A stretch of 49,919 nt of DNA from Verrucomicrobiota bacterium (GCA_043788645.1 JAYVTS010000019.1:1-49919); one strand, 5' to 3'. Shown: positions 3,195 to 35,624, numbered from the stretch's first letter. A program made the numbers and translations. Notes: generated from the letters alone by a model not told the origin.

Positions 3195-4106
3195 ATGAAG
3201 GCAGATCCTGATAAGGTTGTGATCTTTGGCCAACGGTCTATTCAACGACCGAGTGGCCGATCGATTATTTACAGGGGATCTGCCTTCACTCTGATCGAAC
3301 TCTTAGTGGTTATTGCCATCATTGCGATCTTGGCAGGCCTACTTCTGCCCGCCCTGAGCGGCGCCCGTCAACGGGCTCAAGGAATTGCCTGTTTGAGCAA
3401 TCTGCGACAATGCCAATTGGCCTGGCAATTGTATCTGACGGATAACAATGATCAATTTGTCCCCAACCATCCCTATTTTTCGCAGATGTCGTGGGAGTTT
3501 TCGCTAAGTTGGTGCTTGGGGAACATGGATTATGGTCAACCTGACGGAACCAATATTGCCAATTTAATGGGCGATCGCGGTTCTTCACTGGGTCGTTATG
3601 TCTCTACCCATCGAATCTTTAAGTGTCCTTCAGATCGGTCGCTGACCCCTTTGCCAAATGGGAAATTTCCACGGGTTCGGAGTTACTCGATGAATTCAAA
3701 TCTCGGAACCGACTTTCGAGATCCGCAAGGGGACCAAGGTTGGAGTGGTTTTGCCATGAAAGATCTGCCTAGAGCCAACCGACCAGAACTCTTCGTTTTC
3801 ATTGATGAATACGCCGACAGCATTGATGACTGCGCTTTCGGTGCAGACGGCAACGGTTTCAACGGATGGGGTGCTGGATACCCTAGTTCGCGGCATCGAC
3901 AATCTGGCACGGTTTCATTTATTGACGGGCATGTGGAAATGCATCGTTGGACTAGTCCCAAAACCACCCCACCTGAAACTGGCCGACCGTGGTATATTGC
4001 TTTTCCGCCGACTTCAATTCCATGGGATGATTCTCCCGCGGCGCGGGATTTGCAGTGGGTCTACGTCAGAAATTTCAGATCTTGGATCAATGAACCGTTC
4101 CCGTGA
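3195..4106 (+). CDS. Prepilin-type N-terminal cleavage/methylation protein, DUF1559 (H-X9-DG) family
   Basis: [26 protein letters not shown] pilin-like helix. C-terminal [13 protein letters not shown] matches H-X9-DG. Starts 14 nt after the upstream stop. Confidence 0.9.
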
Positions 4107-28554: not shown

Positions 28555-28615
28555 TGCCAGTTTGTTGGGCTCCGGTTCGTCGCGGCTCGGAAGGACCGGC
28601 TCCACGAGTCCCGAA

Positions 28616-28648
28616 CTGCCTTTCAACTGCCTTTCAACTGCCTTTCAA
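28616..28648. repeat. Perfect 11-bp tandem repeat (CTGCCTTTCAA)x3 upstream of tRNA-Asn
   Basis: Read directly at 28616-28648. Confidence 0.95.
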
Positions 28649-28791: not shown

Positions 28792-28866
28792 TCCAGAGTA
28801 GCTCAATGGTAGAGCACGCGGCTGTTAACCGTGGGGTTGTAGGTTCAAGTCCTACCTCTGGAGCCA
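28792..28866 (+). tRNA. tRNA-Asn (anticodon GTT), CCA encoded
   Basis: Manual cloverleaf: acceptor TCCAGAG/CTCTGGA, D-arm GCTC-AATGGTA-GAGC, anticodon arm CGCGG-CTGTTAA-CCGTG, variable GGGTT, T-arm GTAGG-TTCAAGT-CCTAC, discriminator G, CCA. Confidence 0.95.
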
Positions 28867-28869
28867 ATT
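28839..28869. repeat. attL core: 31-bp direct repeat (T-arm to 3' end of tRNA-Asn plus 3 nt)
   Basis: gtaggttcaagtcctacctctggagccaatt is identical to 33784-33814. Confidence 0.95.
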
Positions 28870-28923
28870 TTGAGGCCTCCTTTTCACGGGGGTTTTGTGC
28901 AAAAAGTTCTCCAAACACCCCGG

Positions 28924-28947
28924 ACTGTCAGCAAAACTGTCAGCAAA
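28924..28947. repeat. 12-bp tandem repeat (ACTGTCAGCAAA)x2 between attL and the integrase remnant
   Basis: Read directly at 28924-28947. Confidence 0.9.
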
Positions 28948-29048
28948 CGCACTCACGCGCCGGAATTCCGGTAAATTTGAGCGCGCTCGCTCACGGATCG
29001 CTGACACTCAGGAGCTTCGTTCCGGTAGCCTCAAAAGAGACCGGAAAA

Positions 29049-29874
29049 ATGAAAAACCGTTACCGCATGTTCCGCCGTGGCAGCCGTTACTACCTGCACG
29101 ATGGCGAAACCCCCAAGTTCGAATCGCCGCGCGATTACTTTGCGGGAACACCAACTCATCATTTCGACGGAACGGAACATCGAACGACGCCTTTACTACG
29201 AACTGTTATGGGACACTGGCGGCAGCCAGACCGACGTCGTCATGCTGACCGCGGAAAACTGTGATTGGAAAACCCGGGTATTGAGCTTTCAACGTAAGAA
29301 GCTCAACGGCGACGCGCCGCCCGCTCAATTGTCCATCGGACCGAAAATGGAAGCAGTCTTGCGGCAACTTTCGTCGGCTGGACCCCTATTTCCGAAGTGG
29401 TGCCAGACCAGAGACAAAGACCGTTCCGCAGAATTTCGCCTCCGCTGTAACCTGTTAAAGATCAATTGCATAGGATTCAATTCCTACCGATATGCCTGGG
29501 CGGAGCGCGCGTTTGCGGCAGGGTATCCCGAGCGGTTTGCCATGGCGAACCTGGGACATTCCAGCCGGGCGGTGCATCGATCGTACGCGAAAAAGGCATT
29601 CGTGATCTGTCCCCCCTGGAATGCTTTTCGGTCGGACAACAACCGTCGACTAACAAACCTGCAATGCTCGTTGAAGCCTGCGGAACAATTTGATTCGGGC
29701 GTTTCCGGGTCAAGGGGTGTCGCGGATTTCGCCGGTCGTGGACGGTTGACAGCCGATAACAATTTTGGTATAAACAAGCGAGGAGTAACGAGTGCCTCAA
29801 ACGCGAATCATCTTTTACAAAGACCTTACCGGAGGGGTGCCCGCCCTGGAGTGGCTGGCCGACCTCAGAATTAA
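29049..29874 (+). pseudogene. Tyrosine recombinase/integrase, disrupted (N-terminal stub and catalytic domain in different frames)
   Basis: The ATG at 29049 gives MKNRYRMFRRGSRYYLHDGETPKFES, then runs out of frame. The +1 frame from about 29128 gives AITLREHQLII...YYELLWDTGGSQTDVVML...NSYRYAWAERAFAAGYPERFAMANLGHSSRAVHRSYAK, a C-terminal catalytic-domain pattern with the terminal H..Y. No core-binding domain lies between the two parts. Confidence 0.7.
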
Positions 29875-29884
29875 CGGGCCCTGA
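29792..29884 (+). pseudogene. Truncated Gp49/HigB-like (RelE/ParE superfamily) toxin, N-terminal 30 codons only
   Basis: AGGAG 6 nt upstream of the GTG at 29792. VPQTRIIFYKDLTGGVPALEWLADLRINGP then a stop. It resembles the N-terminus of phage Gp49-like toxins that pair with XRE antitoxins. The partner gene starts 43 nt later. Confidence 0.55.
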
Positions 29885-29926
29885 AGAGAAAACGTTTATT
29901 CGAATCAAAACCGGAGGCGCACACCT

Positions 29927-30292
29927 ATGCTCAAGATTGAAAAATCAAATCGAACCACCGACGCCGTTGCCATCATGGAGGGAATGATTGGCAACGATCC
30001 CGACGCTCGTCGCGCCGTGGAAGAGGCGCGTGCGAATGTAGCGGTGGCCCAACTCATCTACGAAATGCGCGTCAAGGCAGGCCTAACCCAATCCGCCCTG
30101 GCGGAACTTATTGGAACGAAACAGCCGGTCATTGCCCGTTTGGAGGATGCTGACTACCAAGGCCACTCCCTCTCGATGCTTCAGAGAATTGCCACTGCGC
30201 TCAGTCTCCGGATTGAAATCACGGTTGCCCCCTTGGCTTCCAAAGTAGCCAAGCGAAGCCGTCGGCGATTGGCCACCCACGGTGCCAAATAA
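29927..30292 (+). CDS. XRE-family helix-turn-helix antitoxin-like protein (HigA type)
   Basis: GGAGG 9 nt upstream of the ATG. HTH MRVKAGLTQSALAELIGTKQPVIARLED. 121 aa. Confidence 0.82.
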   Translation: MLKIEKSNRTTDAVAIMEGMIGNDPDARRAVEEARANVAVAQLIYEMRVKAGLTQSALAELIGTKQPVIARLEDADYQGHSLSMLQRIATALSLRIEITVAPLASKVAKRSRRRLATHGAK

Positions 30293-30627
30293 GGCGACGG
30301 TATGCTCCGTTCGAGTTTCGGCAGAGCTACCTCACAAATGCGTGCTCCGCCGCAAGGGTAGAGATTTGGTTGATTGAAGTAGCCGCGTAGCGGGCCTGGG
30401 TGATGCTTCAAACGCGACTTTGAGGACCCTCTGCCGGTGTCTACGGTCGTCGCTTTGCCTCCGTCGGCTGGTTTCGCTACGACACGCCGTTCCCCCACGG
30501 GTCGCTCTTTGGAGAAACGTCCTTAACGTTATTACGCCTGGGAAAAATGGCGCGGATCTTGAGGATATTTCTGAAAGCAGGATTTGCCGTCGATTGAATA
30601 GCCTCCTTTGCAATTTCCTCTATGACG

Positions 30628-31752
30628 TTAGCAGCTGCCCGTCCTATAAGTTATATAGTTCTGACCCTTTTTTGATGGTATATAGTGAAATTGACCGCTA
30701 TTATTTTTTTTAATATGTCCCTTAGCCAAGGATACCGACTCTGATTGGAGCTTCTGAATGCCCTTGGAATACCGTTTACTCGAGGGCCTTTCATCCAGAT
30801 TATATTGAAGTTCGTAGCGATCTGAATGCAAAGATGACCAGTAAATTTTTACGTGGTTGTAGCTTGGATCCTCGAGCAAATTCCAGATCGCCGAAACTCC
30901 AGATATCGAAATGTCTGTCCCAAATAAAACAGATTGGAGCGCGGTAGCAGGTAAGGTTACGGCGTCATTATAAGTAGCAGAATCACAATCACACTGTAAT
31001 TTGTTTTGTATTTTGCATTCGCGGCATGACGTACATTTTACATAATTGGGTGAGCTACGAAATTTATCGAGGTCATAGATCATTCGAACTTCTTTTTCGT
31101 ACGCCCAAGCCGGCGACTTGCTAGTAAGGAATGCCAGAACCCTATCGGTTTCAATTTCTTGAAATTCACTCTCGGTAAGGTAAAGGCCACCCTCAGGATC
31201 CTGGTGGAAAATCCGGCCGCTATCTTTGATGATATTACAATTTACACTCGGATGTGCATCATAAAAACTCGGTGCAAAACTTTTCCTACTTAAATCGTAG
31301 GCGACCGGAAAGCCGCCAGCCTTAATTCCCGTATCAAATTTTCCGGAGTCGAAGCCAAGACAAACCCCCTGAAACGAGTCCGCATAATGAGCCCATAATA
31401 GCGTATTTGATTCGTTGGATCCAGTTGGATGATTGGGATCCATAATTCCCGTTGCGAAACTCAGCACGCGATATTTTTTATGCAGAAGCGCGAATGCTTT
31501 CTGATTGCGGATATCTGCTACGCCTCTATGTTGGTCAACACTTGTTAAGTCTGGTTTATTGGTCGGCAATGGGCTTATCGATTGATTGCGAGCCAGTTGC
31601 TCTTCGTGCGAGCGTTTTTCGTGATGTTCTGTCCAAGCTGGTCGCATTTCAAACGGGTCGTTTAAATCGAGTGGACTTGTAATATATAGACGCTTCGTCT
31701 CTATAATGGATTCTCCGACTGTCGCGTTGCAGAATTTGTAGACCAGGCTCAT
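30628..31752 (-). CDS. DUF2971-like protein with an internal Cys cluster
   Basis: N-terminal LVYKFCN...LYITSPLDLNDPFE matches the DUF2971 hallmark (YKY...fs.p..fNDPfE). Cys cluster CTSCRECKIQNKLQCDC. The gene is clearly more AT-rich than its surroundings. ATG at 31752. Confidence 0.75.
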   Translation of the reverse strand: MSLVYKFCNATVGESIIETKRLYITSPLDLNDPFEMRPAWTEHHEKRSHEEQLARNQSISPLPTNKPDLTSVDQHRGVADIRNQKAFALLHKKYRVLSFATGIMDPNHPTGSNESNTLLWAHYADSFQGVCLGFDSGKFDTGIKAGGFPVAYDLSRKSFAPSFYDAHPSVNCNIIKDSGRIFHQDPEGGLYLTESEFQEIETDRVLAFLTSKSPAWAYEKEVRMIYDLDKFRSSPNYVKCTSCRECKIQNKLQCDCDSATYNDAVTLPATALQSVLFGTDISISGVSAIWNLLEDPSYNHVKIYWSSLHSDRYELQYNLDERPSSKRYSKGIQKLQSESVSLAKGHIKKNNSGQFHYIPSKKGQNYITYRTGSC

Positions 31753-31856
31753 AGTGCTCAAAGCATCACAACTCAGTGCCCAATCTGACTACCTTTTGTG
31801 AGTCGCATGGCCGGAGTATTTAGGTTCCTGTTGATTGGACCACCTCGAGCTAGGGT

Positions 31857-32021
31857 TTAGCCGTAATTGATGCCTCTGGGCTGTTGGCGAATTACTTTGC
31901 GACCGGATGCGGCCTGCCGTTTCTTTGCGTCCCTAAAGATGGCCTTCAAATCATAATTCCACCGCTCTGCCTGCTCCTGTCGGGCTTTCCGGACCTCTTC
32001 GACAATCTCGTCTTTATTCAT
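31857..32021 (-). CDS. Small 54-aa protein (not in the ORF track), likely partner of the upstream PIN-like gene
   Basis: Manual translation gives MNKDEIVEEVRKARQEQAERWNYDLKAIFRDAKKRQAASGRKVIRQQPRGINYG. The ATG at 32021 overlaps the PIN-like stop by 8 nt (ATGAATAA). GGGAG lies about 10 nt upstream. Confidence 0.6.
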   Translation of the reverse strand: MNKDEIVEEVRKARQEQAERWNYDLKAIFRDAKKRQAASGRKVIRQQPRGINYG

Positions 32022-32499
32022 GTGCCGAATCTCCCATCAATTCTTCTGGTGTGCAAATCACTGGGGCGGTAAATCCGTGACGGATGCAAACCGCTTGGAT
32101 CAAAGTGGCCATCTCGGCATTGGCAATGTGGGCGCAGTTCCAAGTCACTAGGAAGTGCATGCCGTGGACCGCAGCTAGGGCAATGTGACCAGCGTCGGTG
32201 GTCGCCTTCGCTGGCAGAGCCAATGAGGCAATCAGTGCATTGCCCAGCATAACGGCGTCGTCTGTCAGATCGAGCAACGGAAAGTCGGAGAGTGCATCGA
32301 GTCGTCGCGCCGCCGCCACCGGATCCCCCGCCGAGGCCTCATCAATCACCAGCGAGGAGATGAAAATCTCAAAATGATTTCGCCGCTTCTCCCACCAATC
32401 CCGAGTGGTTTGTTGATGACCGGCCTGGATCAGGTCACGACTCGGCCGCGCCGTGAGGTAACTGGGCACCGTGGTTTCAAGATAGAGCCGTGCCTTCAC
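32014..32499 (-). CDS. PIN-like (VapC-family-like) domain protein
   Basis: The GTG at 32499 gives VKARLYLETTVPSYL (PIN N-terminal strand with E at the usual D). SSLVIDEA. TDAGHIALAAVHGMHFLVTWNCAHIAN (the PIN C-terminal motif with N at the usual D). Starts 10 nt after the Rep stop. Confidence 0.65.
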   Translation of the reverse strand: MKARLYLETTVPSYLTARPSRDLIQAGHQQTTRDWWEKRRNHFEIFISSLVIDEASAGDPVAAARRLDALSDFPLLDLTDDAVMLGNALIASLALPAKATTDAGHIALAAVHGMHFLVTWNCAHIANAEMATLIQAVCIRHGFTAPVICTPEELMGDSAHE

Positions 32500-32509
32500 G
32501 GCAAAAGTA

Positions 32510-33517
32510 CTAACCCGAGGGGCCGGGTGCAGCAAATGGCGCTGGAGAGCCTATCCCGTTCTGAGGGAGGCCCGGTGGTGATGGCGTGCCACGGGAGCGC
32601 CGCCGAATCTCCGCTTCTCCCCAACGAATTCGATCAGCGAATAGGGTCTCGACCGAGGGAGGATATAGGACGAGCCCTAGAAGTTCTGTTCGTCGGTGGT
32701 TCCAGAAATCCGCATTGCAGAAGAGCTTGACCGTGAACTCTCGGACGATGGGAAATCGTAAGGTTTTTCGCTTGTCCGCTGGCGTGATCGATCGGCGGTA
32801 GCCGCGGAAGACCCGGCGGACTCGAATGGCCTGGTCCACACTGATCTCGATCTCCTCAGGACGAGCCGCAGGAAGTTTGGCGCGGCCAATCACGCCCCAA
32901 AACCGGCCGGGTTTGGTGGCTAATCCGGGGACTACCTCGTGTTTGGCAACGTACCGCTTGGCCGCGTAGCCGCAGAGCTGGTGAAAGTTCTTGATCCGTT
33001 CGACTCGGGTCCCGGCTCGGTAGTGGCGCAGGGCGCCGCTGGCGACTACGTCGTACCAGTTTCGGGAAACCCAACGTTTGAAGGTGTCCTGGTTCTTGCG
33101 GTCCGGCTGCTCTCCGAACGGAATCAGGCGGCCAGCCCCGAGCCACCGACCGTCGCTGATGGTGTACCCGGGGAGGTCTCCCATACCCCATTCGAACCAG
33201 GCAACGACGCCGTTAAATTCCTGGCGCTCCACCTTGGCAAACGAGTGCCGCTCGATTTGGTGAGGGAACAGATCTGGGACGCCATAGATGATCAGATGGT
33301 AGTGGGGTGCGATCTGGCCGACGTTGGCCCCGCTCTTACCAGCTTGGAACTCAAGAGTCCACAGCGCCGAGGCACCTGGCCATCGGCGAGTGATCCGATG
33401 CCAGAACATTTCGAAATGCCGCTTAAAATCCTCGTGATAGGTCGGGAACTCGTTTGGGTAGGTCAAGGTGACGAAAATCGGCTGTTGGTCCCGTTGTAGG
33501 GTCGCCAGGAGCTCCAA
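32510..33517 (-). CDS. HUH-superfamily rolling-circle replication initiator (Rep), possibly frameshifted at its 5' end
   Basis: Motif I FVTLTYP, motif II (HUH) APHYHLIIYG, and motif III tyrosine region LCGYAAKRYVAK, in canonical order and spacing. The ORF track starts at a TTG (33517), but the frame stays open upstream to 33568 with no ATG. Confidence 0.75.
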   Translation of the reverse strand: MELLATLQRDQQPIFVTLTYPNEFPTYHEDFKRHFEMFWHRITRRWPGASALWTLEFQAGKSGANVGQIAPHYHLIIYGVPDLFPHQIERHSFAKVERQEFNGVVAWFEWGMGDLPGYTISDGRWLGAGRLIPFGEQPDRKNQDTFKRWVSRNWYDVVASGALRHYRAGTRVERIKNFHQLCGYAAKRYVAKHEVVPGLATKPGRFWGVIGRAKLPAARPEEIEISVDQAIRVRRVFRGYRRSITPADKRKTLRFPIVREFTVKLFCNADFWNHRRTELLGLVLYPPSVETLFADRIRWGEAEIRRRSRGTPSPPGLPQNGIGSPAPFAAPGPSG

Positions 33518-33783
33518 GAAGCGTCGGCGGGGTCGTCCGTTAATCGGTGAATGCCGACGGTCGAGGTTTCAATCGGCAGAGGGTTCGCGGAACTCATCGT
33601 CCCACCTCCGCGGATTCGATGATAGCGGGGACGGCCTTCCGGAGCCCGCGGGGAAGGGAGGGCCACGCTCTCGAGACGCGCTGGAGGTCGACGGGAATGT
33701 CTTGGGTTTTGATCTCGGCCGAGGGAGTGTGAGTGCCTTTGTGAGTCTTCCCGCGTAAGTCACTTTGGTTACAACGCTCCGGC

Positions 33784-33814
33784 GTAGGTTCAAGTCCTAC
33801 CTCTGGAGCCAATT
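33784..33814. repeat. attR core: displaced 3' fragment of tRNA-Asn (31-bp direct repeat)
   Basis: Identical to 28839-28869. The flanks differ on both sides. Confidence 0.95.
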
Positions 33815-33820
33815 CTATCT

Positions 33821-33898
33821 TCTGACCGTCTGCAACCGTCTGCAACCGTCTGCAACCGTCTGCGACCCTCTGCGACAAACCGCGACAAACCGCGACTT
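33821..33898. repeat. 10-bp-period tandem array (iteron-like): TGCAACCGTC x3 perfect plus about 5 degenerate units
   Basis: tctgaccgtc tgcaaccgtc tgcaaccgtc tgcaaccgtc tgcgaccctc tgcgacaaac cgcgacaaac cgcgactt, starting 7 nt beyond attR. Confidence 0.9.
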
Positions 33899-34238
33899 GG
33901 AGTAGTGTTTTCAACGATTTTCTCTCCTTTTCCATCCGCAACAACCGTGACATGCAACGACCGGTTTGAACTCGCAGCGCCTGGCGTTTGTGAGTGCAGT
34001 TGTGGGTGATTGGGGAGGTAGGCAGGCAGTTTCGCCATTGCGTCGGCTATGGGTAACATTGGTGGTATCGACTCGGATGCTGAGAAGCAGTGTCAGTTGA
34101 AGCTTTCGGATGGAGCAAGACCATTAGGCAACGACTCTCCATGCCCTAGTCGGATCACCAAGCCGCGACAGGTTTTGGGGGAAATTTTTGGAATTGCGCC
34201 CGTGTTCAACGATGAGATAAGATCAATTTGGAAATCGT

Positions 34239-34406
34239 ATGGCCCTCCCAGATCCAAAGACAAAGGCGAAGACGCCGAAGCAGGAAATTAGGCAACTTCA
34301 TGCGGCGGCCCGTAAGATCATTGCCTCGAAAGAATTGTCGCTTCGTTTTCTGGCGGCGACCGGAATGTATACCGCTTCCGGCGAGATTAAGCCGGAATTC
34401 CGCTAA
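34239..34406 (+). CDS. Small 55-aa protein (not in the ORF track), antitoxin-like position
   Basis: Manual translation gives MALPDPKTKAKTPKQEIRQLHAAARKIIASKELSLRFLAATGMYTASGEIKPEFR. Its stop overlaps the next ATG (TAATG at 34404-34408). Confidence 0.5.
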   Translation: MALPDPKTKAKTPKQEIRQLHAAARKIIASKELSLRFLAATGMYTASGEIKPEFR

Positions 34407-34811
34407 TGGTATCCCGTTCGCTGGTCCTCGGCTACCATGGTTATTCCTGCCGTCGTTGGCGCCGTTATGGATTTGGGTAACTGTCTAAACCTCATCGATT
34501 CGGAACACCTTGAAATCGTTGCGGCCGCTCATCGGATCTATTGCCAACTTTGCACGAGCTCGGGCGCTCAACCCTTGACGAACAAAGGCAAGGAAATGGC
34601 GGTCCGCTATCTCGACTGCGCCGGGTTCGAGACGCTCCATCACTTCCGCCGGGGCCAAGGTGAAGTTGCTTTTGATTCGGTTCGGGCCTTCTTTGTTGAA
34701 GGCCAGGAAATTTATCCCACCGCCGGGCTCAGATCTCTAGATCATATCCAGATTTGCGTCCGTTCTTTGGGCCAGATCACGGGCTTTTTCCTGCCGCGTC
34801 TCACGGTGTGA
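34406..34811 (+). pseudogene. Disrupted conserved hypothetical gene (N-terminal 24 codons in one frame, 124-aa remainder in another)
   Basis: The ATG at 34406 gives MVSRSLVLGYHGYSC... and stops at 34478. The frame from 34437 gives PAVVGAVMDLGNCLNLIDSEHLE...RYLDCAGFETLHH...FDSVRAFFVEGQEIYPTAGLRSLDHIQICVRS. This is consistent with an internal deletion or frameshift. Confidence 0.45.
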
Positions 34812-35624
34812 ACGTGGCCCAGTCGGCCAGCTGAGATCGCGGCAGGATGCGGGCGCCGTTCACCGTAACGTCAGCTTTCCGGGATGGTGGTTGGGAAACC
34901 AGGAATCGGGTTTTCGAGGTGCCGAGGGACGCTCCTTTCTAAACTGCTCGGGCTTGGCAGAAACTCAGCGCCTTTTCGCCGATCCAGGATCGTCTCTCCC
35001 CAGCGAATTCGATCTGTACCGCCCCTCCGTTGGCCGACTAGCCTTCTGGTATCCCACGTTCCACGGCTTAGCGACGACCACGATCCCGGCCCAAAGTAAC
35101 CTTCTCGGTCAAGGTTCGTTGCTTGAGGGGATCATTGGGCGGCAGGGCGAAAGCTGGAGCGGCGCCCGCGCATTTTCAATGGAGTCCAGACTCGGAAAAG
35201 GGGCGTTTCGATGGCTTTTTTTAACAACGGCCTTTCCTTTCATGGCAGCCATGAATTCCGAGACGGTTCAATTCGTGTCTCGTGATTGCTCAAGGCGCGT
35301 TACGGTTTCAAAGGTCATTACTCTGCAATTCCAATCGACGGTCAGTTCTTCCTTGCGTCCGGCCGTAATGCAAAGTTAGCGTCAAAAAAATCAGAAAAGC
35401 TTTTCCATCACCTCATGATAAACTCCGAACCTTTCGCTCACAGTCCGGCTGCTCGCATGCCAGGTCTGCGCGCAAGGCCGAGCCAGTTGATCAAGGGTTT
35501 ACTACCCCCAGAGTTCGGAAATGTGGCTCTGAAGCCCGTGGCATTTTCAAAATCAGAGTCGTTGTGCGAAAACGCGAAAAAACAAAACTAAACCCTAAAT
35601 TCCAAATCGATAGTGGCTTAAATT

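What the first reader, a model, noticed from the sequence alone, without database searches (positions are those of the whole stretch)
28792..33814. Compact (~5 kb) integrative element in tRNA-Asn bounded by perfect 31-bp direct repeats
The 31 nt covering the T-arm, the 3' acceptor strand, CCA and 3 further nt of tRNA-Asn (28839-28869) recur exactly at 33784-33814, with unrelated flanks. That is the classic attL/attR signature of site-specific integration into a tRNA 3' end. The gene content is unusual. It combines a tyrosine-integrase remnant with an HUH rolling-circle Rep, which normally marks ssDNA phages or small rolling-circle plasmids. No capsid, conjugation or transposase genes are present. 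There are three toxin-antitoxin-like modules or remnants and one AT-rich cargo gene (DUF2971-like). Several genes look decayed, so this may be a domesticated remnant of a small episome class that is poorly described in PVC bacteria. This is my top candidate for the novel system in this window.
Basis: partly seen in the sequence, partly recalled or inferred. Interest (0 to 1): 0.8.

Follow-up and report, generated by a model that had tools for sequence, protein, structure and literature searches.

The report
Decayed mini integrative plasmid in tRNA-Asn
This is a real but broken-down 4.9-kb mobile element inserted into a tRNA-Asn gene; it belongs to an apparently undescribed family of very small "replicate-and-integrate" elements of Verrucomicrobiota, a type of element already known from other bacteria.

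Summary
tRNA-Asn(GTT) lies at 28792-28866. The 31 nt at 28839-28869 recur exactly at 33784-33814, with unrelated flanks and no second tRNA there.

The interior is a genuine site-specific integrative element, but a decayed one.
- The tyrosine integrase next to the tRNA keeps aa 1-23 and the catalytic domain. It lacks the equivalent of aa 24-161 of an intact relative, is frameshifted, and has N for H in HxxR.
- The HUH Rep (PF23343) keeps motifs I-III, but an in-frame stop disrupts its conserved N-terminal segment.
- A HigB-like toxin is a 30-aa stub.
- The apparently intact genes are cargo: a DUF2971/PDC-S31 defence candidate, a PIN-like gene plus a 54-aa ORF, and an HTH antitoxin-like gene.

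Relatives of the Rep occur almost only in Verrucomicrobiota. In about 20 loci the Rep sits between a tRNA gene and an 18-45-nt repeat of that tRNA, in elements of 2.2-8 kb laid out att-Rep-cargo-Xis-Int-tRNA. One relative (L109) has an intact integrase of the window's type beside tRNA-Asn.

Integrase plus rolling-circle Rep at a tRNA is already known from AICEs, IMEs and archaeal cryptic integrated elements. This is therefore a new member of a known kind. I found no empty site and no circular form.

The parts
28792..28866 (+). tRNA-Asn(GTT), intact. Its 3' part, from the crossover onward, is supplied by the element.
   Evidence: ARAGORN; Rfam RF00005 at 70.5 bits; 73/75 identical to the tRNA-Asn next to the related element L109.
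28839..28869 (+). attL core: the left copy of the perfect 31-nt direct repeat (T-arm, 3' acceptor strand, CCA and ATT).
28877..28947 (+). Element-borne spacer between attL and int. It holds a terminator-like hairpin (28877-28892 plus a T run) and two tandem 12-mers, ACTGTCAGCAAA (28924-28947). These are candidate arm-type or operator sites (inference).
   Evidence: L109 has a hairpin and the similar GTGTCAGTGAAACTGTCAGTAAAC at the same place. The hairpin count is not above shuffles.
29049..29646 (+). Tyrosine integrase pseudogene. aa 1-23 lie at 29049-29117, and the catalytic domain follows from 29125 in another frame. About 138 aa (the core-binding domain) are deleted, and the HxxR His is replaced by Asn (FNSYRY).
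   Evidence: Pfam PF00589 E 5e-4, below the gathering score; phrog_1 integrase. Full-length homologs are 325-365 aa and start MKNR(F/Y)..LFKR. tblastn of the intact L109 Int gives aa 1-23 -> 29049-29117 and aa 162-321 -> 29125-29613.
29793..29885 (+). 30-codon stub resembling the N-terminus of a HigB/Gp49-type toxin, directly upstream of the HTH gene.
   Evidence: ORF and translation. No Pfam or NCBIfam hit. The assignment rests on position and recalled sequence resemblance only (inference).
29927..30292 (+). XRE/HTH_37 antitoxin-like regulator (HigA-like), apparently intact.
   Evidence: Pfam HTH_37 E 4.7e-9 and HTH_3 E 1.6e-7; phrog_1373; weak NCBIfam antitoxin subfamily hits below cut-off.
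30628..31761 (-). Low-GC cargo gene, DUF2971, matching the single-gene phage-defence candidate PDC-S31.
   Evidence: Pfam PF11185 E 1.4e-9; PADLOC PDC-S31 E 4.3e-26; phrog_1762 E 5e-32; GC 0.42-0.45.
31857..32021 (-). 54-aa ORF overlapping the end of the PIN-like gene by 8 nt; a possible partner (antitoxin?).
   Evidence: No meaningful family hit: the only one is a sub-threshold Pfam CDI match, E 0.0046, taken as chance; none.
32014..32535 (-). PIN-like (VapC-like) gene immediately downstream of Rep.
   Evidence: Pfam PIN E 4e-4, 21.4 bits against a cut-off of 23.6. A PIN module occupies the same position after Rep in L027 and L107, but those PINs are not BLASTP-similar to this one.
32510..33613 (-). 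HUH rolling-circle Rep. The 335-aa ORF 32510-33517 has intact motifs FVTLTY, HYHLII and YAAKRYVAK. The conserved N-terminal segment upstream (to about 33613) is degenerate and interrupted by an in-frame TGA at about 33553.
   Evidence: Pfam PF23343 at 31.2 bits against a cut-off of 27.8; 137 homologs; alignment A1 with invariant residues; frame analysis; tblastn of P0003 runs through the stop to 33613.
33594..33783 (-). Coding segment between attR and Rep that ends in the family motif (DLQRVSRAWPSLPRGLRKAVPAIIES, 33621-33668). In relatives this segment is the C-terminal tail that the integrase gains in the circular form. Here it has no partner.
33784..33814 (+). attR core: the right copy of the 31-nt repeat (the displaced original 3' end of the tRNA), followed by host flank.
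   Evidence: The Logan unitigs L001 and L002 break exactly at this repeat.

Best explanation
The 4,945-bp unit (28839/28870 to 33783/33814) is a small integrative replicon that entered the 3' end of tRNA-Asn by tyrosine-recombinase attP x attB recombination. The element supplied a new 3' end for the tRNA (attL) and pushed the original 3' end to the far side (attR).

It belongs to a Verrucomicrobiota family whose intact members are laid out as distal att, HUH Rep, variable cargo, Xis-like HTH, tyrosine integrase, tRNA.

The inferred life cycle has three steps. Int, with Xis, excises a double-stranded circle. Rep nicks an origin on the circle and drives rolling-circle replication, which maintains or amplifies the circle. 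Rep could possibly also act as a relaxase for transfer by a helper. Int then re-integrates the circle at the cognate tRNA.

The copy in this window can no longer do this on its own:
- The integrase has lost its core-binding domain, is frameshifted and carries a catalytic His-to-Asn change.
- No Xis-like gene remains.
- The conserved N-terminal segment of Rep is interrupted by a stop codon.
- The HigB-like toxin is a stub.

What remains apparently intact is cargo: a DUF2971/PDC-S31 defence-candidate gene of foreign composition, a PIN-like gene with a small partner ORF, and an HTH regulator.

Shown: the repeat, the tRNA, the gene identities, the lesions and the family architecture. Inferred: excision, rolling-circle replication, the function of the cargo, and present immobility.
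For: Repeat and tRNA.

Rep: PF23343 above the gathering score, with all three HUH motifs and the invariant residues of the family.

Family architecture:
- 19 genome loci, 17 of them titled Verrucomicrobiota, Verrucomicrobiae or Limisphaerales, and 80 metagenome loci.
- In about 20 loci the Rep is enclosed by a tRNA gene (Met, Ser, Pro, Val, Arg, Lys or Leu) and an 18-45-nt direct repeat of that tRNA, giving elements of 2.2-8 kb.
- Where the 3' end of the tRNA is the duplicated part (12 elements measured), Rep reads inward from the distal repeat: the gap is 134-267 nt in 9, as in the window, and about 690-760 nt in 3.
- Intact relatives carry an HTH_17 Xis-like gene and a 430-450-aa integrase (PF00589 E 1e-10 to 1e-18) next to the tRNA.

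Closest architecture: L109 has Rep (51% identical), a 105-aa Xis-like ORF, an intact 346-aa integrase of the window's family on the opposite strand, conserved spacer repeats, and a tRNA-Asn 73/75 identical to the window's.

Lesions:
- Integrase internal deletion and frameshift.
- Rep in-frame stop.
- No Xis-like gene and no 270-aa ORF.

Cargo: none of the cargo genes is shared with relatives, so they are accessory. DUF2971 matches PDC-S31 and has low GC.

No capsid, conjugation or transposase family was found in Pfam, PHROGs or NCBIfam.
Against: No empty tRNA-Asn site was found:
- The window's flanking proteins are not on record.
- The contig of a relative 94% identical in DNA stops 6 nt into the repeat.
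- An 88%-identical ortholog lies in different synteny.
- An attB-junction search in metagenomes gave 0 hits.

There is no evidence of a circular form. The 4974-bp Logan contig is exactly what a k=31 unitig bounded by the repeated 31-mer would be.

Rep may still work. Its 335-aa ORF is open with all catalytic motifs, and some database homologs are called with equally short N-termini (P0016, P0028).

The window carries the 'integrase tail' segment typical of elements with a convergent integrase, yet its integrase is of the other type and orientation. Its history therefore includes module exchange that I cannot reconstruct.

The fold search for Rep was inconclusive.
Confidence: 0.8

Rival explanations
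1. The element is not dead but non-autonomous. The perfect att sites and the catalytically complete Rep core would let it be excised and replicated in trans by a related intact element in the same cell, in the way a satellite or a mobilizable islet is.
For: The 31-nt repeats are perfect. The Rep ORF is open with motifs I-III intact. Intact integrases of the same family targeting the same tRNA-Asn exist in related bacteria (L109). Spacer repeats that may be Int arm sites are conserved.
Against: The 50-kb window contains no helper element. No circular or empty-site junction was found. The origin has not been identified. A 31-nt repeat free of mutations only limits the element's age weakly.
Confidence: 0.2
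2. The island is a composite of two elements that integrated one after the other at tRNA-Asn and were then fused by deletion. The right part (tail segment and Rep) would come from an element with a convergent integrase. The left part (integrase remnant, HigBA remnant) would come from another.
For: The tail motif next to attR belongs, in 11 relatives, to a convergent integrase that is absent here. Several genes have internal deletions. GC is heterogeneous.
Against: L109 and L003 show Rep followed by the same integrase type in the same opposite orientation, and L109 is also at tRNA-Asn. That pairing is therefore native to this Rep clade. No third, internal copy of the att core exists even with 3 mismatches. 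No remnant of a convergent integrase is detectable. Module exchange by recombination explains the tail equally well.
Confidence: 0.12
3. It is the remnant of an integrated single-stranded DNA phage (microvirus- or inovirus-like) that has lost its structural genes.
For: The Rep matches the Pfam family named for ORF2/G2P replication proteins. It shows weak similarity to gokushovirus VP4 initiators, E about 1e-3 to 3e-4 over 15-35% of the protein. More distant Rep relatives sit on 4.4-5.8-kb circular contigs with four conserved non-replication ORFs that could be structural.
Against: Rep has no PHROG hit. The IMG/VR scan with two Rep-motif patterns found no relative. No capsid or morphogenesis family was found in the window or in the ORFs scanned from ten integrated relatives. 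Intact integrated relatives are as small as 3.5-3.7 kb and are filled by Rep, Xis and Int. Similarity to small actinobacterial rolling-circle plasmids is as good or better (E down to 8e-8).
Confidence: 0.04
4. The repeat is a chance match or part of a degenerate second tRNA gene, and the genes between the copies are ordinary chromosomal genes.
For: None beyond the absence of a demonstrated empty site.
Against: There were 0 matches in 100 shuffles. No tRNA is called at the second copy. The same tRNA-repeat-Rep arrangement recurs at about ten different tRNA species.
Confidence: 0.01

Closest known systems
AICEs (actinomycete integrative and conjugative elements, e.g. pSAM2; PMC3218068)
   Same: A tyrosine integrase with Xis is combined with an HUH rolling-circle initiator in one element. 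The element integrates into the 3' end of a tRNA gene and is flanked by direct repeats. The layout is att-...-rep-xis-int-att. Replication and integration modules are exchanged between elements. The window's Rep family is weakly similar to Reps of small actinobacterial plasmids.
   Different: There is no FtsK/SpoIIIE Tra protein. The hosts are Verrucomicrobiota, not Actinomycetales. The Rep is PF23343-type and has not been shown to be RepSA. The elements are much smaller: 2.2-8 kb in this family, against roughly 9-24 kb for AICEs, a figure I recall rather than took from the paper.
IMEs (integrative and mobilizable elements) of streptococci with relaxases related to rolling-circle initiators (PMC5357655)
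   Same: They are compact elements bounded by direct repeats. A tyrosine integrase is paired with a protein of the rolling-circle initiator type. There is no type IV secretion system. Cargo is variable.
   Different: The streptococcal IMEs use other Rep families (PF02486, PF01719, PHA00330, PF02407). About 60% of them (85 of 144) carry a coupling protein, and with initiator-type relaxases that protein is always TcpA. No coupling protein is present here, and nothing here shows mobilization.
Cryptic integrated elements of archaea (PMC6563490) and tRNA-borne genomic islands in general (Islander, PMC4383910)
   Same: They are defined operationally in the same way: an integrase plus att repeats made of a tRNA fragment, sometimes with a rolling-circle initiator (NitAQ6f-E2), no recognisable virus or conjugation genes, and frequent decay.
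   Different: The domain of life and the Rep family differ. Islander islands peak at 13.6 and 39.9 kb, so this family lies at the extreme small end.
Myxophage Mx8 integrase (intP to intX; PMC6070905, PMC4383910)
   Same: In 11 of 12 related elements tested, the integrase reading frame continues across the reconstructed attP into a conserved tail of 60-78 aa. Integration therefore replaces the C-terminus of Int, as in Mx8.
   Different: This applies to relatives, not to the window's own integrase, which points the other way. Only the orphan tail-coding segment is present in the window. No Int+tail fusion protein was found in the database, so the circular form is inferred and has not been observed.

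Membership tests
tRNA-targeting site-specific integrative element (Islander-type island) | Intact tRNA gene at one end | tested here: met
   tRNA-Asn at 28792-28866, found by ARAGORN and by Rfam at 70.5 bits.
tRNA-targeting site-specific integrative element (Islander-type island) | Displaced tRNA fragment as a direct repeat at the other end, not part of another tRNA | tested here: met
   Exact 31-nt repeat at 33784-33814; 0 of 100 shuffles gave a match; no tRNA is called there; flanks are unrelated.
tRNA-targeting site-specific integrative element (Islander-type island) | Integrase gene inside the element, next to an att site | tested here: met
   Present only as a pseudogene, 179 nt from attL. 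It matches the intact L109 integrase over aa 1-23 and aa 162-321.
tRNA-targeting site-specific integrative element (Islander-type island) | Empty site (attB) in related genomes, or a circular attP junction | tested here: inconclusive
   No usable relative was found. The Logan contig is explained by the assembly break at the repeated 31-mer.
HUH rolling-circle replication initiators (Pfam PF23343 REP_ORF2-G2P) | Profile match above the curated threshold | tested here: met
   31.2 bits against a cut-off of 27.8, E 2.7e-7. Nearly all of the 120 listed homologs carry PF23343.
HUH rolling-circle replication initiators (Pfam PF23343 REP_ORF2-G2P) | Motif I (FxTLTY), motif II (HUH) and motif III (YxxKY) present | tested here: met
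   FVTLTY, HYHLII and YAAKRYVAK are present. H72, H74, Y184, K187 and Y189 are invariant in alignment A1.
HUH rolling-circle replication initiators (Pfam PF23343 REP_ORF2-G2P) | HUH (ferredoxin-like) fold | tested here: inconclusive
   The AF2 model has pLDDT 71.6. Foldseek against PDB gave no hit at E<=0.001. RepB of pMV158, IS200 and ISDra2 TnpA appear only at E 0.1-0.6. The PDB sequence search gave 0 hits.
HUH rolling-circle replication initiators (Pfam PF23343 REP_ORF2-G2P) | Complete protein, including the family's conserved N-terminal segment (GLSKxHI ... RGxVxEF ... RRR) | tested here: not met
   An in-frame TGA lies upstream of ...GRPRRRFLELL, and the segment is shortened and degenerate.
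AICE | FtsK/SpoIIIE-type Tra translocase | tested here: not met
   No such domain in the window's ORFs or in the ORFs of relatives that were scanned.
AICE | RepSA/RepAM/Prim-Pol replication module in an actinomycete host | tested here: not met
   The Rep is PF23343. The hosts are Verrucomicrobiota. There is only weak similarity to small actinobacterial plasmid Reps.
IME (integrative mobilizable element) | Complete integrase plus complete relaxase or rolling-circle initiator within direct repeats, and no T4SS | tested here: not met
   In the window the integrase is a pseudogene and Rep is disrupted at its N-terminus. Intact relatives (L011, L012, L013, L027) would meet the formal definition.
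IME (integrative mobilizable element) | Mobilization by a conjugative helper (oriT or coupling protein) | not testable with these tools
   No coupling protein was found. An oriT cannot be recognised from sequence here.
Integrated ssDNA phage (Microviridae or Inoviridae provirus) | Capsid or morphogenesis genes (F/VP1, or pI/Zot and coat proteins) | tested here: not met
   No Pfam or PHROG hit of that kind. Rep has no PHROG hit. The IMG/VR scan found no relative.
Mx8-type integrase gene spanning attP | The int reading frame continues across attP, so integration changes the Int C-terminus | tested here: not met
   Not met for the window's own integrase, which is in the opposite orientation; only 17 codons are open upstream of attL in the tail frame. 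Met in 11 of 12 relatives.
Type II toxin-antitoxin modules | Adjacent intact toxin and antitoxin genes of recognised families | tested here: not met
   The HTH_37 antitoxin-like gene is intact, but the upstream toxin is a 30-aa stub with no family hit. The PIN match is below the gathering score (21.4 against 23.6 bits), and its 54-aa neighbour has no meaningful hit.
PADLOC phage-defence candidate PDC-S31 | Profile match to the PDC-S31 models | tested here: met
   PDLC04990 E 4.3e-26, with four further PDC-S31 models also hit. Defence activity itself is not testable here.

The most novel reading that the evidence does not exclude
The window's element may be a fossil of an undescribed, Verrucomicrobiota-wide family of minimal Rep-Xis-Int integrative replicons; intact members run about 3.5-8 kb. 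These would be among the smallest self-integrating, self-replicating elements known. In most members the integrase gene spans attP, so integration swaps a conserved C-terminal tail. That would act as a built-in switch between the integrated and excised states. The elements carry defence, TA and TPR cargo between tRNA sites. They share their Rep lineage with free 4.4-5.8-kb circular replicons that may be small viruses.
Probability: 0.45. Interest if true: 0.6.

Novelty: new member of a known kind. Interest (0 to 1): 0.38.

Why it matters
For this window the practical result is annotation. The 4.9 kb after tRNA-Asn is a dead mobile element. Its surviving genes (the DUF2971/PDC-S31 candidate, the PIN-like gene and the HTH regulator) are horizontally acquired cargo, not core genes.

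The finding also opens a family that I could not find described in the searched literature. Verrucomicrobiota have few characterised mobile elements. The family is a set of very small elements, each combining a rolling-circle Rep with a site-specific integrase, that target at least eleven tRNA species. Intact members such as L011, L012, L013, L027 and L109 could serve as minimal integrative vectors for a phylum with few genetic tools. They would also allow a direct test of whether changing the integrase C-terminus on integration controls the direction of recombination.

Tried and rejected
- Empty-site search. Exact look-ups of the left (two start choices) and right flanking proteins found nothing. 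The closest ortholog contig (L022, 93.8% DNA identity) ends 6 nt into the repeat. The 88%-identical ortholog has PhoU/pst genes downstream instead of a tRNA. An exact attB-junction search in metagenome contigs gave 0 hits.
- Circular form. The 4974-bp Logan contig L001 first looked like an excised circle. It equals window 28840-33813, which is what a k=31 unitig bounded by the repeated 31-mer must be, so I rejected it as evidence. That Logan assembles at k=31 is from my own knowledge.
- Viral origin. The IMG/VR scan and PHROGs gave nothing for Rep. The tblastn hits to Microviridae VP4 are marginal.
- Solved structures. The sequence search gave no hit, and the fold search gave only insignificant HUH hits.
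- Int+tail fusion proteins, which would be proof of the excised form in relatives. None was found. All long homologs read into antisense tRNA, meaning they come from the integrated form.
- Distal repeat of the intact tRNA-Asn relatives L109 and L003. Not found. Their homology to each other simply ends upstream of a 270-aa ORF.
- Third TA module. Not found. The gap at 30293-30627 has no convincing ORF.
- Homology between the PIN genes that follow Rep in L027, L107 and the window. None by BLASTP.
- Promoter and terminator scan. Counts were not above shuffles.

Full report
**1. Observation**

ARAGORN finds a single tRNA in the window, tRNA-Asn(GTT) at 28792-28866 on the + strand. Rfam confirms it at 70.5 bits and finds no other tRNA between 27000 and 37000.

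The 31-mer GTAGGTTCAAGTCCTACCTCTGGAGCCAATT occurs at 28839-28869 and at 33784-33814 and nowhere else, even with three mismatches allowed. None of 100 dinucleotide-preserving shuffles gave a match. The 40 nt on either side of the two copies agree at chance level, 10/40 and 8/40.

**2. What lies between the repeats**

Reading from the tRNA:

- **Spacer (179 nt).** It holds a terminator-like hairpin and two tandem copies of ACTGTCAGCAAA.
- **Tyrosine integrase remnant, + strand.**
  - Its first codons (MKNRYRMFRRGSRYYLHD...) are in one frame and the catalytic domain is in another.
  - Full-length homologs are 325-365 aa, begin MKNR(F/Y)xLFKR..., and align to the window's catalytic domain from about their residue 160.
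  - The intact integrase of the relative L109 matches window 29049-29117 with aa 1-23 and 29125-29613 with aa 162-321. About 138 residues, the core-binding domain, have been deleted cleanly, leaving a frameshift.
  - The His of the HxxR box is Asn in the window (FNSYRY against LHSYRY in all homologs).
  - The unusual S/A-Q in place of the first catalytic Arg (TGGSQTD) is shared by all homologs. It is a family trait, not decay.
- **HigB/Gp49-like stub.** A 30-codon stub resembles a HigB/Gp49 N-terminus. It has no profile hit, so this is inference. An intact HTH_37/XRE gene follows it.
- **DUF2971 gene, - strand.** GC is 0.42-0.45. It matches the PADLOC defence candidate PDC-S31 at E 4e-26 and phrog_1762.
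- **54-aa ORF.** It overlaps the end of a PIN-like gene. The PIN match scores 21.4 bits, just under the Pfam threshold.
- **HUH Rep, - strand.** The 335-aa ORF scores 31.2 bits against PF23343, whose cut-off is 27.8. Motifs FVTLTY, HYHLII and YAAKRYVAK are intact.
- **Segment between Rep and attR.** About 190 nt, ending in a peptide motif discussed in section 4.

No capsid, conjugation or transposase family was detected in Pfam, PHROGs or NCBIfam.

**3. Rep and its relatives**

The Rep has 137 database homologs, the best at only about 52% identity, and nearly all of the 120 listed carry PF23343. In the alignment the family has a conserved N-terminal segment (GLSKxHI ... RGxVxEF ... RRR). In the window this segment is shortened, degenerate and cut by an in-frame TGA just upstream of ...GRPRRRFLELL. 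The catalytic core is intact, so inactivation of Rep is likely but not certain.

Scans of GTDB genomes returned 19 loci, 17 of them titled Verrucomicrobiota, Verrucomicrobiae or Limisphaerales. JGI metagenomes returned 80 more. A scan of IMG/VR viral contigs with two Rep-motif patterns returned none. Rep has no PHROG hit. It has only marginal similarity to gokushovirus VP4 and somewhat better similarity to Reps of 4-7-kb actinobacterial plasmids, E down to 8e-8. The PDB sequence search and the fold search were uninformative.

**4. The family architecture**

I ran ARAGORN on all loci and searched each one for repeats of its tRNA. In about 20 loci the Rep is enclosed between a tRNA gene and an 18-45-nt direct repeat of one end of that tRNA.

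- The tRNAs are Met, Pro, Val, Arg(acg), Arg(tct), Ser(gct), Ser(cga), Ser(gga), Lys and Leu.
- The elements measure 2.2-8 kb.
- Usually the 3' end of the tRNA is duplicated. In L007, L015, L036/L037 and L050 it is the 5' half.
- In the 12 elements with a 3'-end repeat that I measured, Rep reads inward from the distal repeat. The gap is 134-267 nt in 9 of them, as in the window, and about 690-760 nt in 3.
- Intact members then carry variable cargo, an HTH_17 Xis-like gene, and a 430-450-aa integrase that runs into the tRNA. The cargo includes TA modules, TPR proteins, a STAND-like ATPase and a DnaJ-domain protein.

The window's cargo genes are found in none of these relatives.

*The closest architecture is L109.* Its order is: a 270-aa ORF; Rep, 51% identical to the window's; a 105-aa Xis-like ORF; an intact 346-aa integrase on the opposite strand (PF00589 at 30.1 bits, above threshold); a spacer with a hairpin and GTGTCAGTGAAACTGTCAGTAAAC repeats; and a tRNA-Asn 73/75 identical to the window's. 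L003 shows the same Rep-integrase pairing. The window's combination of Rep, this integrase type, its orientation and its target tRNA is therefore native to a sub-lineage. The window copy is a degraded version that has lost the 270-aa ORF and the Xis-like gene.

*A family feature seen in passing.* The segment between the distal repeat and Rep codes for a conserved peptide, DLxxVVxAWPxLPxPLKAAILAIVxS, with third-position wobble in the DNA. It is present on the Rep strand in 32 of the roughly 100 loci scanned, and in the window, at 33621-33668. It lies just upstream of Rep in all of them except L018, where it lies downstream, and L019, where it falls within the merged Rep-hit span.

In 11 of 12 elements with a convergent integrase, the integrase frame continues across the reconstructed attP junction into this peptide without a stop. 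The linkers fall into nine unrelated sequence types. Integration must therefore replace the integrase C-terminus, as described for myxophage Mx8 (PMC6070905, PMC4383910). No Int+tail fusion protein was found in the protein database, so the circular form has not been observed. In the window this tail segment has no partner. The integrase points the other way, and no remnant of a convergent integrase exists. That points to past exchange of integration modules within the Rep clade; L027, L107 and L109 carry three different integrase arrangements.

*Free replicons.* Five metagenome contigs of 3.8-5.8 kb have terminal overlaps of 55-127 nt, which is typical of assembled circles, and encode more distant Reps at 31-49% identity. 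Four of them share a set of non-replication ORFs, including a Laminin_G_3 protein and a roughly 445-aa protein with a hydrophobic stretch that I read as a transmembrane segment. Free circular replicons therefore exist in the wider Rep family. Whether they are plasmids or small viruses is open.

**5. Mechanism**

Shown:
- site-specific insertion in the T-arm-to-3'-end region of tRNA-Asn;
- the family layout;
- the lesions.

Inferred from established knowledge of tyrosine recombinases and HUH initiators (PMC5714925, PMC3218068):
- Intact members excise with Int and Xis and replicate as circles by Rep-initiated rolling-circle synthesis.
- They may be transferred with outside help, and they re-integrate at the cognate tRNA.
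- The window copy lacks a working integrase and an Xis, and probably a working Rep, so it is fixed unless served in trans.

**6. What could not be shown**

- *Empty site.* None was found. The flanking proteins of this organism are not on record. The contig of a relative 94% identical in DNA ends 6 nt into the repeat. The next ortholog is in different synteny. An attB-junction pattern gave no metagenome hit.
- *Circular form.* The 4974-bp Logan contig that carries the element equals window 28840-33813, exactly the unitig expected when a repeated 31-mer bounds it. It is not evidence of a circle. A second sample (SRR23617268) carries an identical 1.9-kb stretch that starts at the same break.

**7. 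Comparison with known systems, and novelty**

A tyrosine integrase combined with a rolling-circle Rep inside tRNA-flanking repeats is the hallmark of AICEs (PMC3218068). It is also seen in streptococcal IMEs (PMC5357655) and in an archaeal cryptic integrated element (PMC6563490).

The element fails the defining tests for an AICE: it has no FtsK-like Tra, the Rep family differs, and the host is different. It fails the tests for a provirus because it has no structural genes. As it stands it also fails the test for an IME, because it has no intact integrase.

Full-text searches found no description of this Verrucomicrobiota family or of PF23343 elements.

**Verdict.** This is a real, decayed member of an apparently undescribed lineage of a known kind of element. 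Interest is moderate. Most of it lies in the intact relatives and their attP-spanning integrase rather than in the window's copy.

Noticed in passing
Related loci L011, L012, L013, L027, L028, L029, L033, L038, L064, L070, L103; window 33621-33668 (-): In 11 of 12 related elements the integrase ORF stays in frame across the reconstructed attP. It continues into a 60-78-aa tail ending in the conserved motif DLxxVVxAWPxLPxPLKAAILAIV, so integration swaps the Int C-terminus, as in Mx8. The window keeps the tail-coding segment but has no matching integrase.
   Followed up: yes
L066, L082, L089, L096, L100 (whole contigs): These metagenome contigs of 3.8-5.8 kb have terminal overlaps of 55-127 nt and so are probably circular. 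They encode Reps 31-49% identical to the window's. Four of them share a Laminin_G_3 protein, a ~445-aa protein with a hydrophobic (probably transmembrane) stretch, and two or three small conserved ORFs. They may be small viruses or plasmids.
   Followed up: partly
window 28614-28648 and 33825-33896: Short tandem arrays lie just outside both ends of the element. AACTGCCTTTC x3.2 sits upstream of the tRNA. ACCGTCTGCA x4.9 followed by GCGACAAACC x2.5 sits immediately after attR. Their function is unknown. They belong to the host flank.
   Followed up: no
window 28877-28947; L109 about 3890-4070: Between attL and the integrase start there is a terminator-like hairpin and two tandem 12-mers, ACTGTCAGCAAA. 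L109 has a hairpin and the similar GTGTCAGTGAAACTGTCAGTAAAC at the same position. These are candidate arm-type Int sites or an int operator.
   Followed up: partly
L022 (end of contig) and L110 (end of contig): Contigs from other samples stop inside the T-arm of tRNA-Asn. L022 stops 6 nt into the window's repeat. L110 stops in the T-arm next to an L109-type element. This may reflect population heterogeneity at this att site.
   Followed up: no
L007, L015, L036/L037, L050: In these relatives the duplicated segment (26-45 nt) is the 5' half of the tRNA up to the anticodon region, and the element lies upstream of the tRNA. This is the rarer 5'-fragment type of tRNA integration.
   Followed up: partly
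L028, L029, L036, L064: Large TPR-repeat proteins recur as cargo in four otherwise different related elements. L033 carries a DnaJ-domain protein, and L007 an AAA_16/STAND-like ATPase.
   Followed up: partly
L027 9100-9749, L107 2685-3295, window 31857-32535: A PIN-domain module sits directly downstream of Rep in three members of the same Rep clade. The PIN proteins are not detectably similar to each other, which suggests repeated independent capture at that position.
   Followed up: partly
window 33900-35620: The 1.7 kb to the right of attR has low coding density. Its two longest ORFs (124 and 162 aa) have no hit in NCBIfam or PADLOC (only the 124-aa ORF was also scanned against Pfam), and a 20-nt segment (34995-35014) is 95% identical to 32616-32635 inside Rep. 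It could be debris from an older insertion at the same tRNA.
   Followed up: no
window 29110-29646; homologs P0246-P0258: The whole integrase family of the window, L003 and L109 has Ser/Ala-Gln where tyrosine recombinases normally have the first catalytic Arg (e.g. TGGSQTD, IGAAQTD). From memory, Bacteroides IntDOT is similar in this respect; I did not check this.
   Followed up: partly
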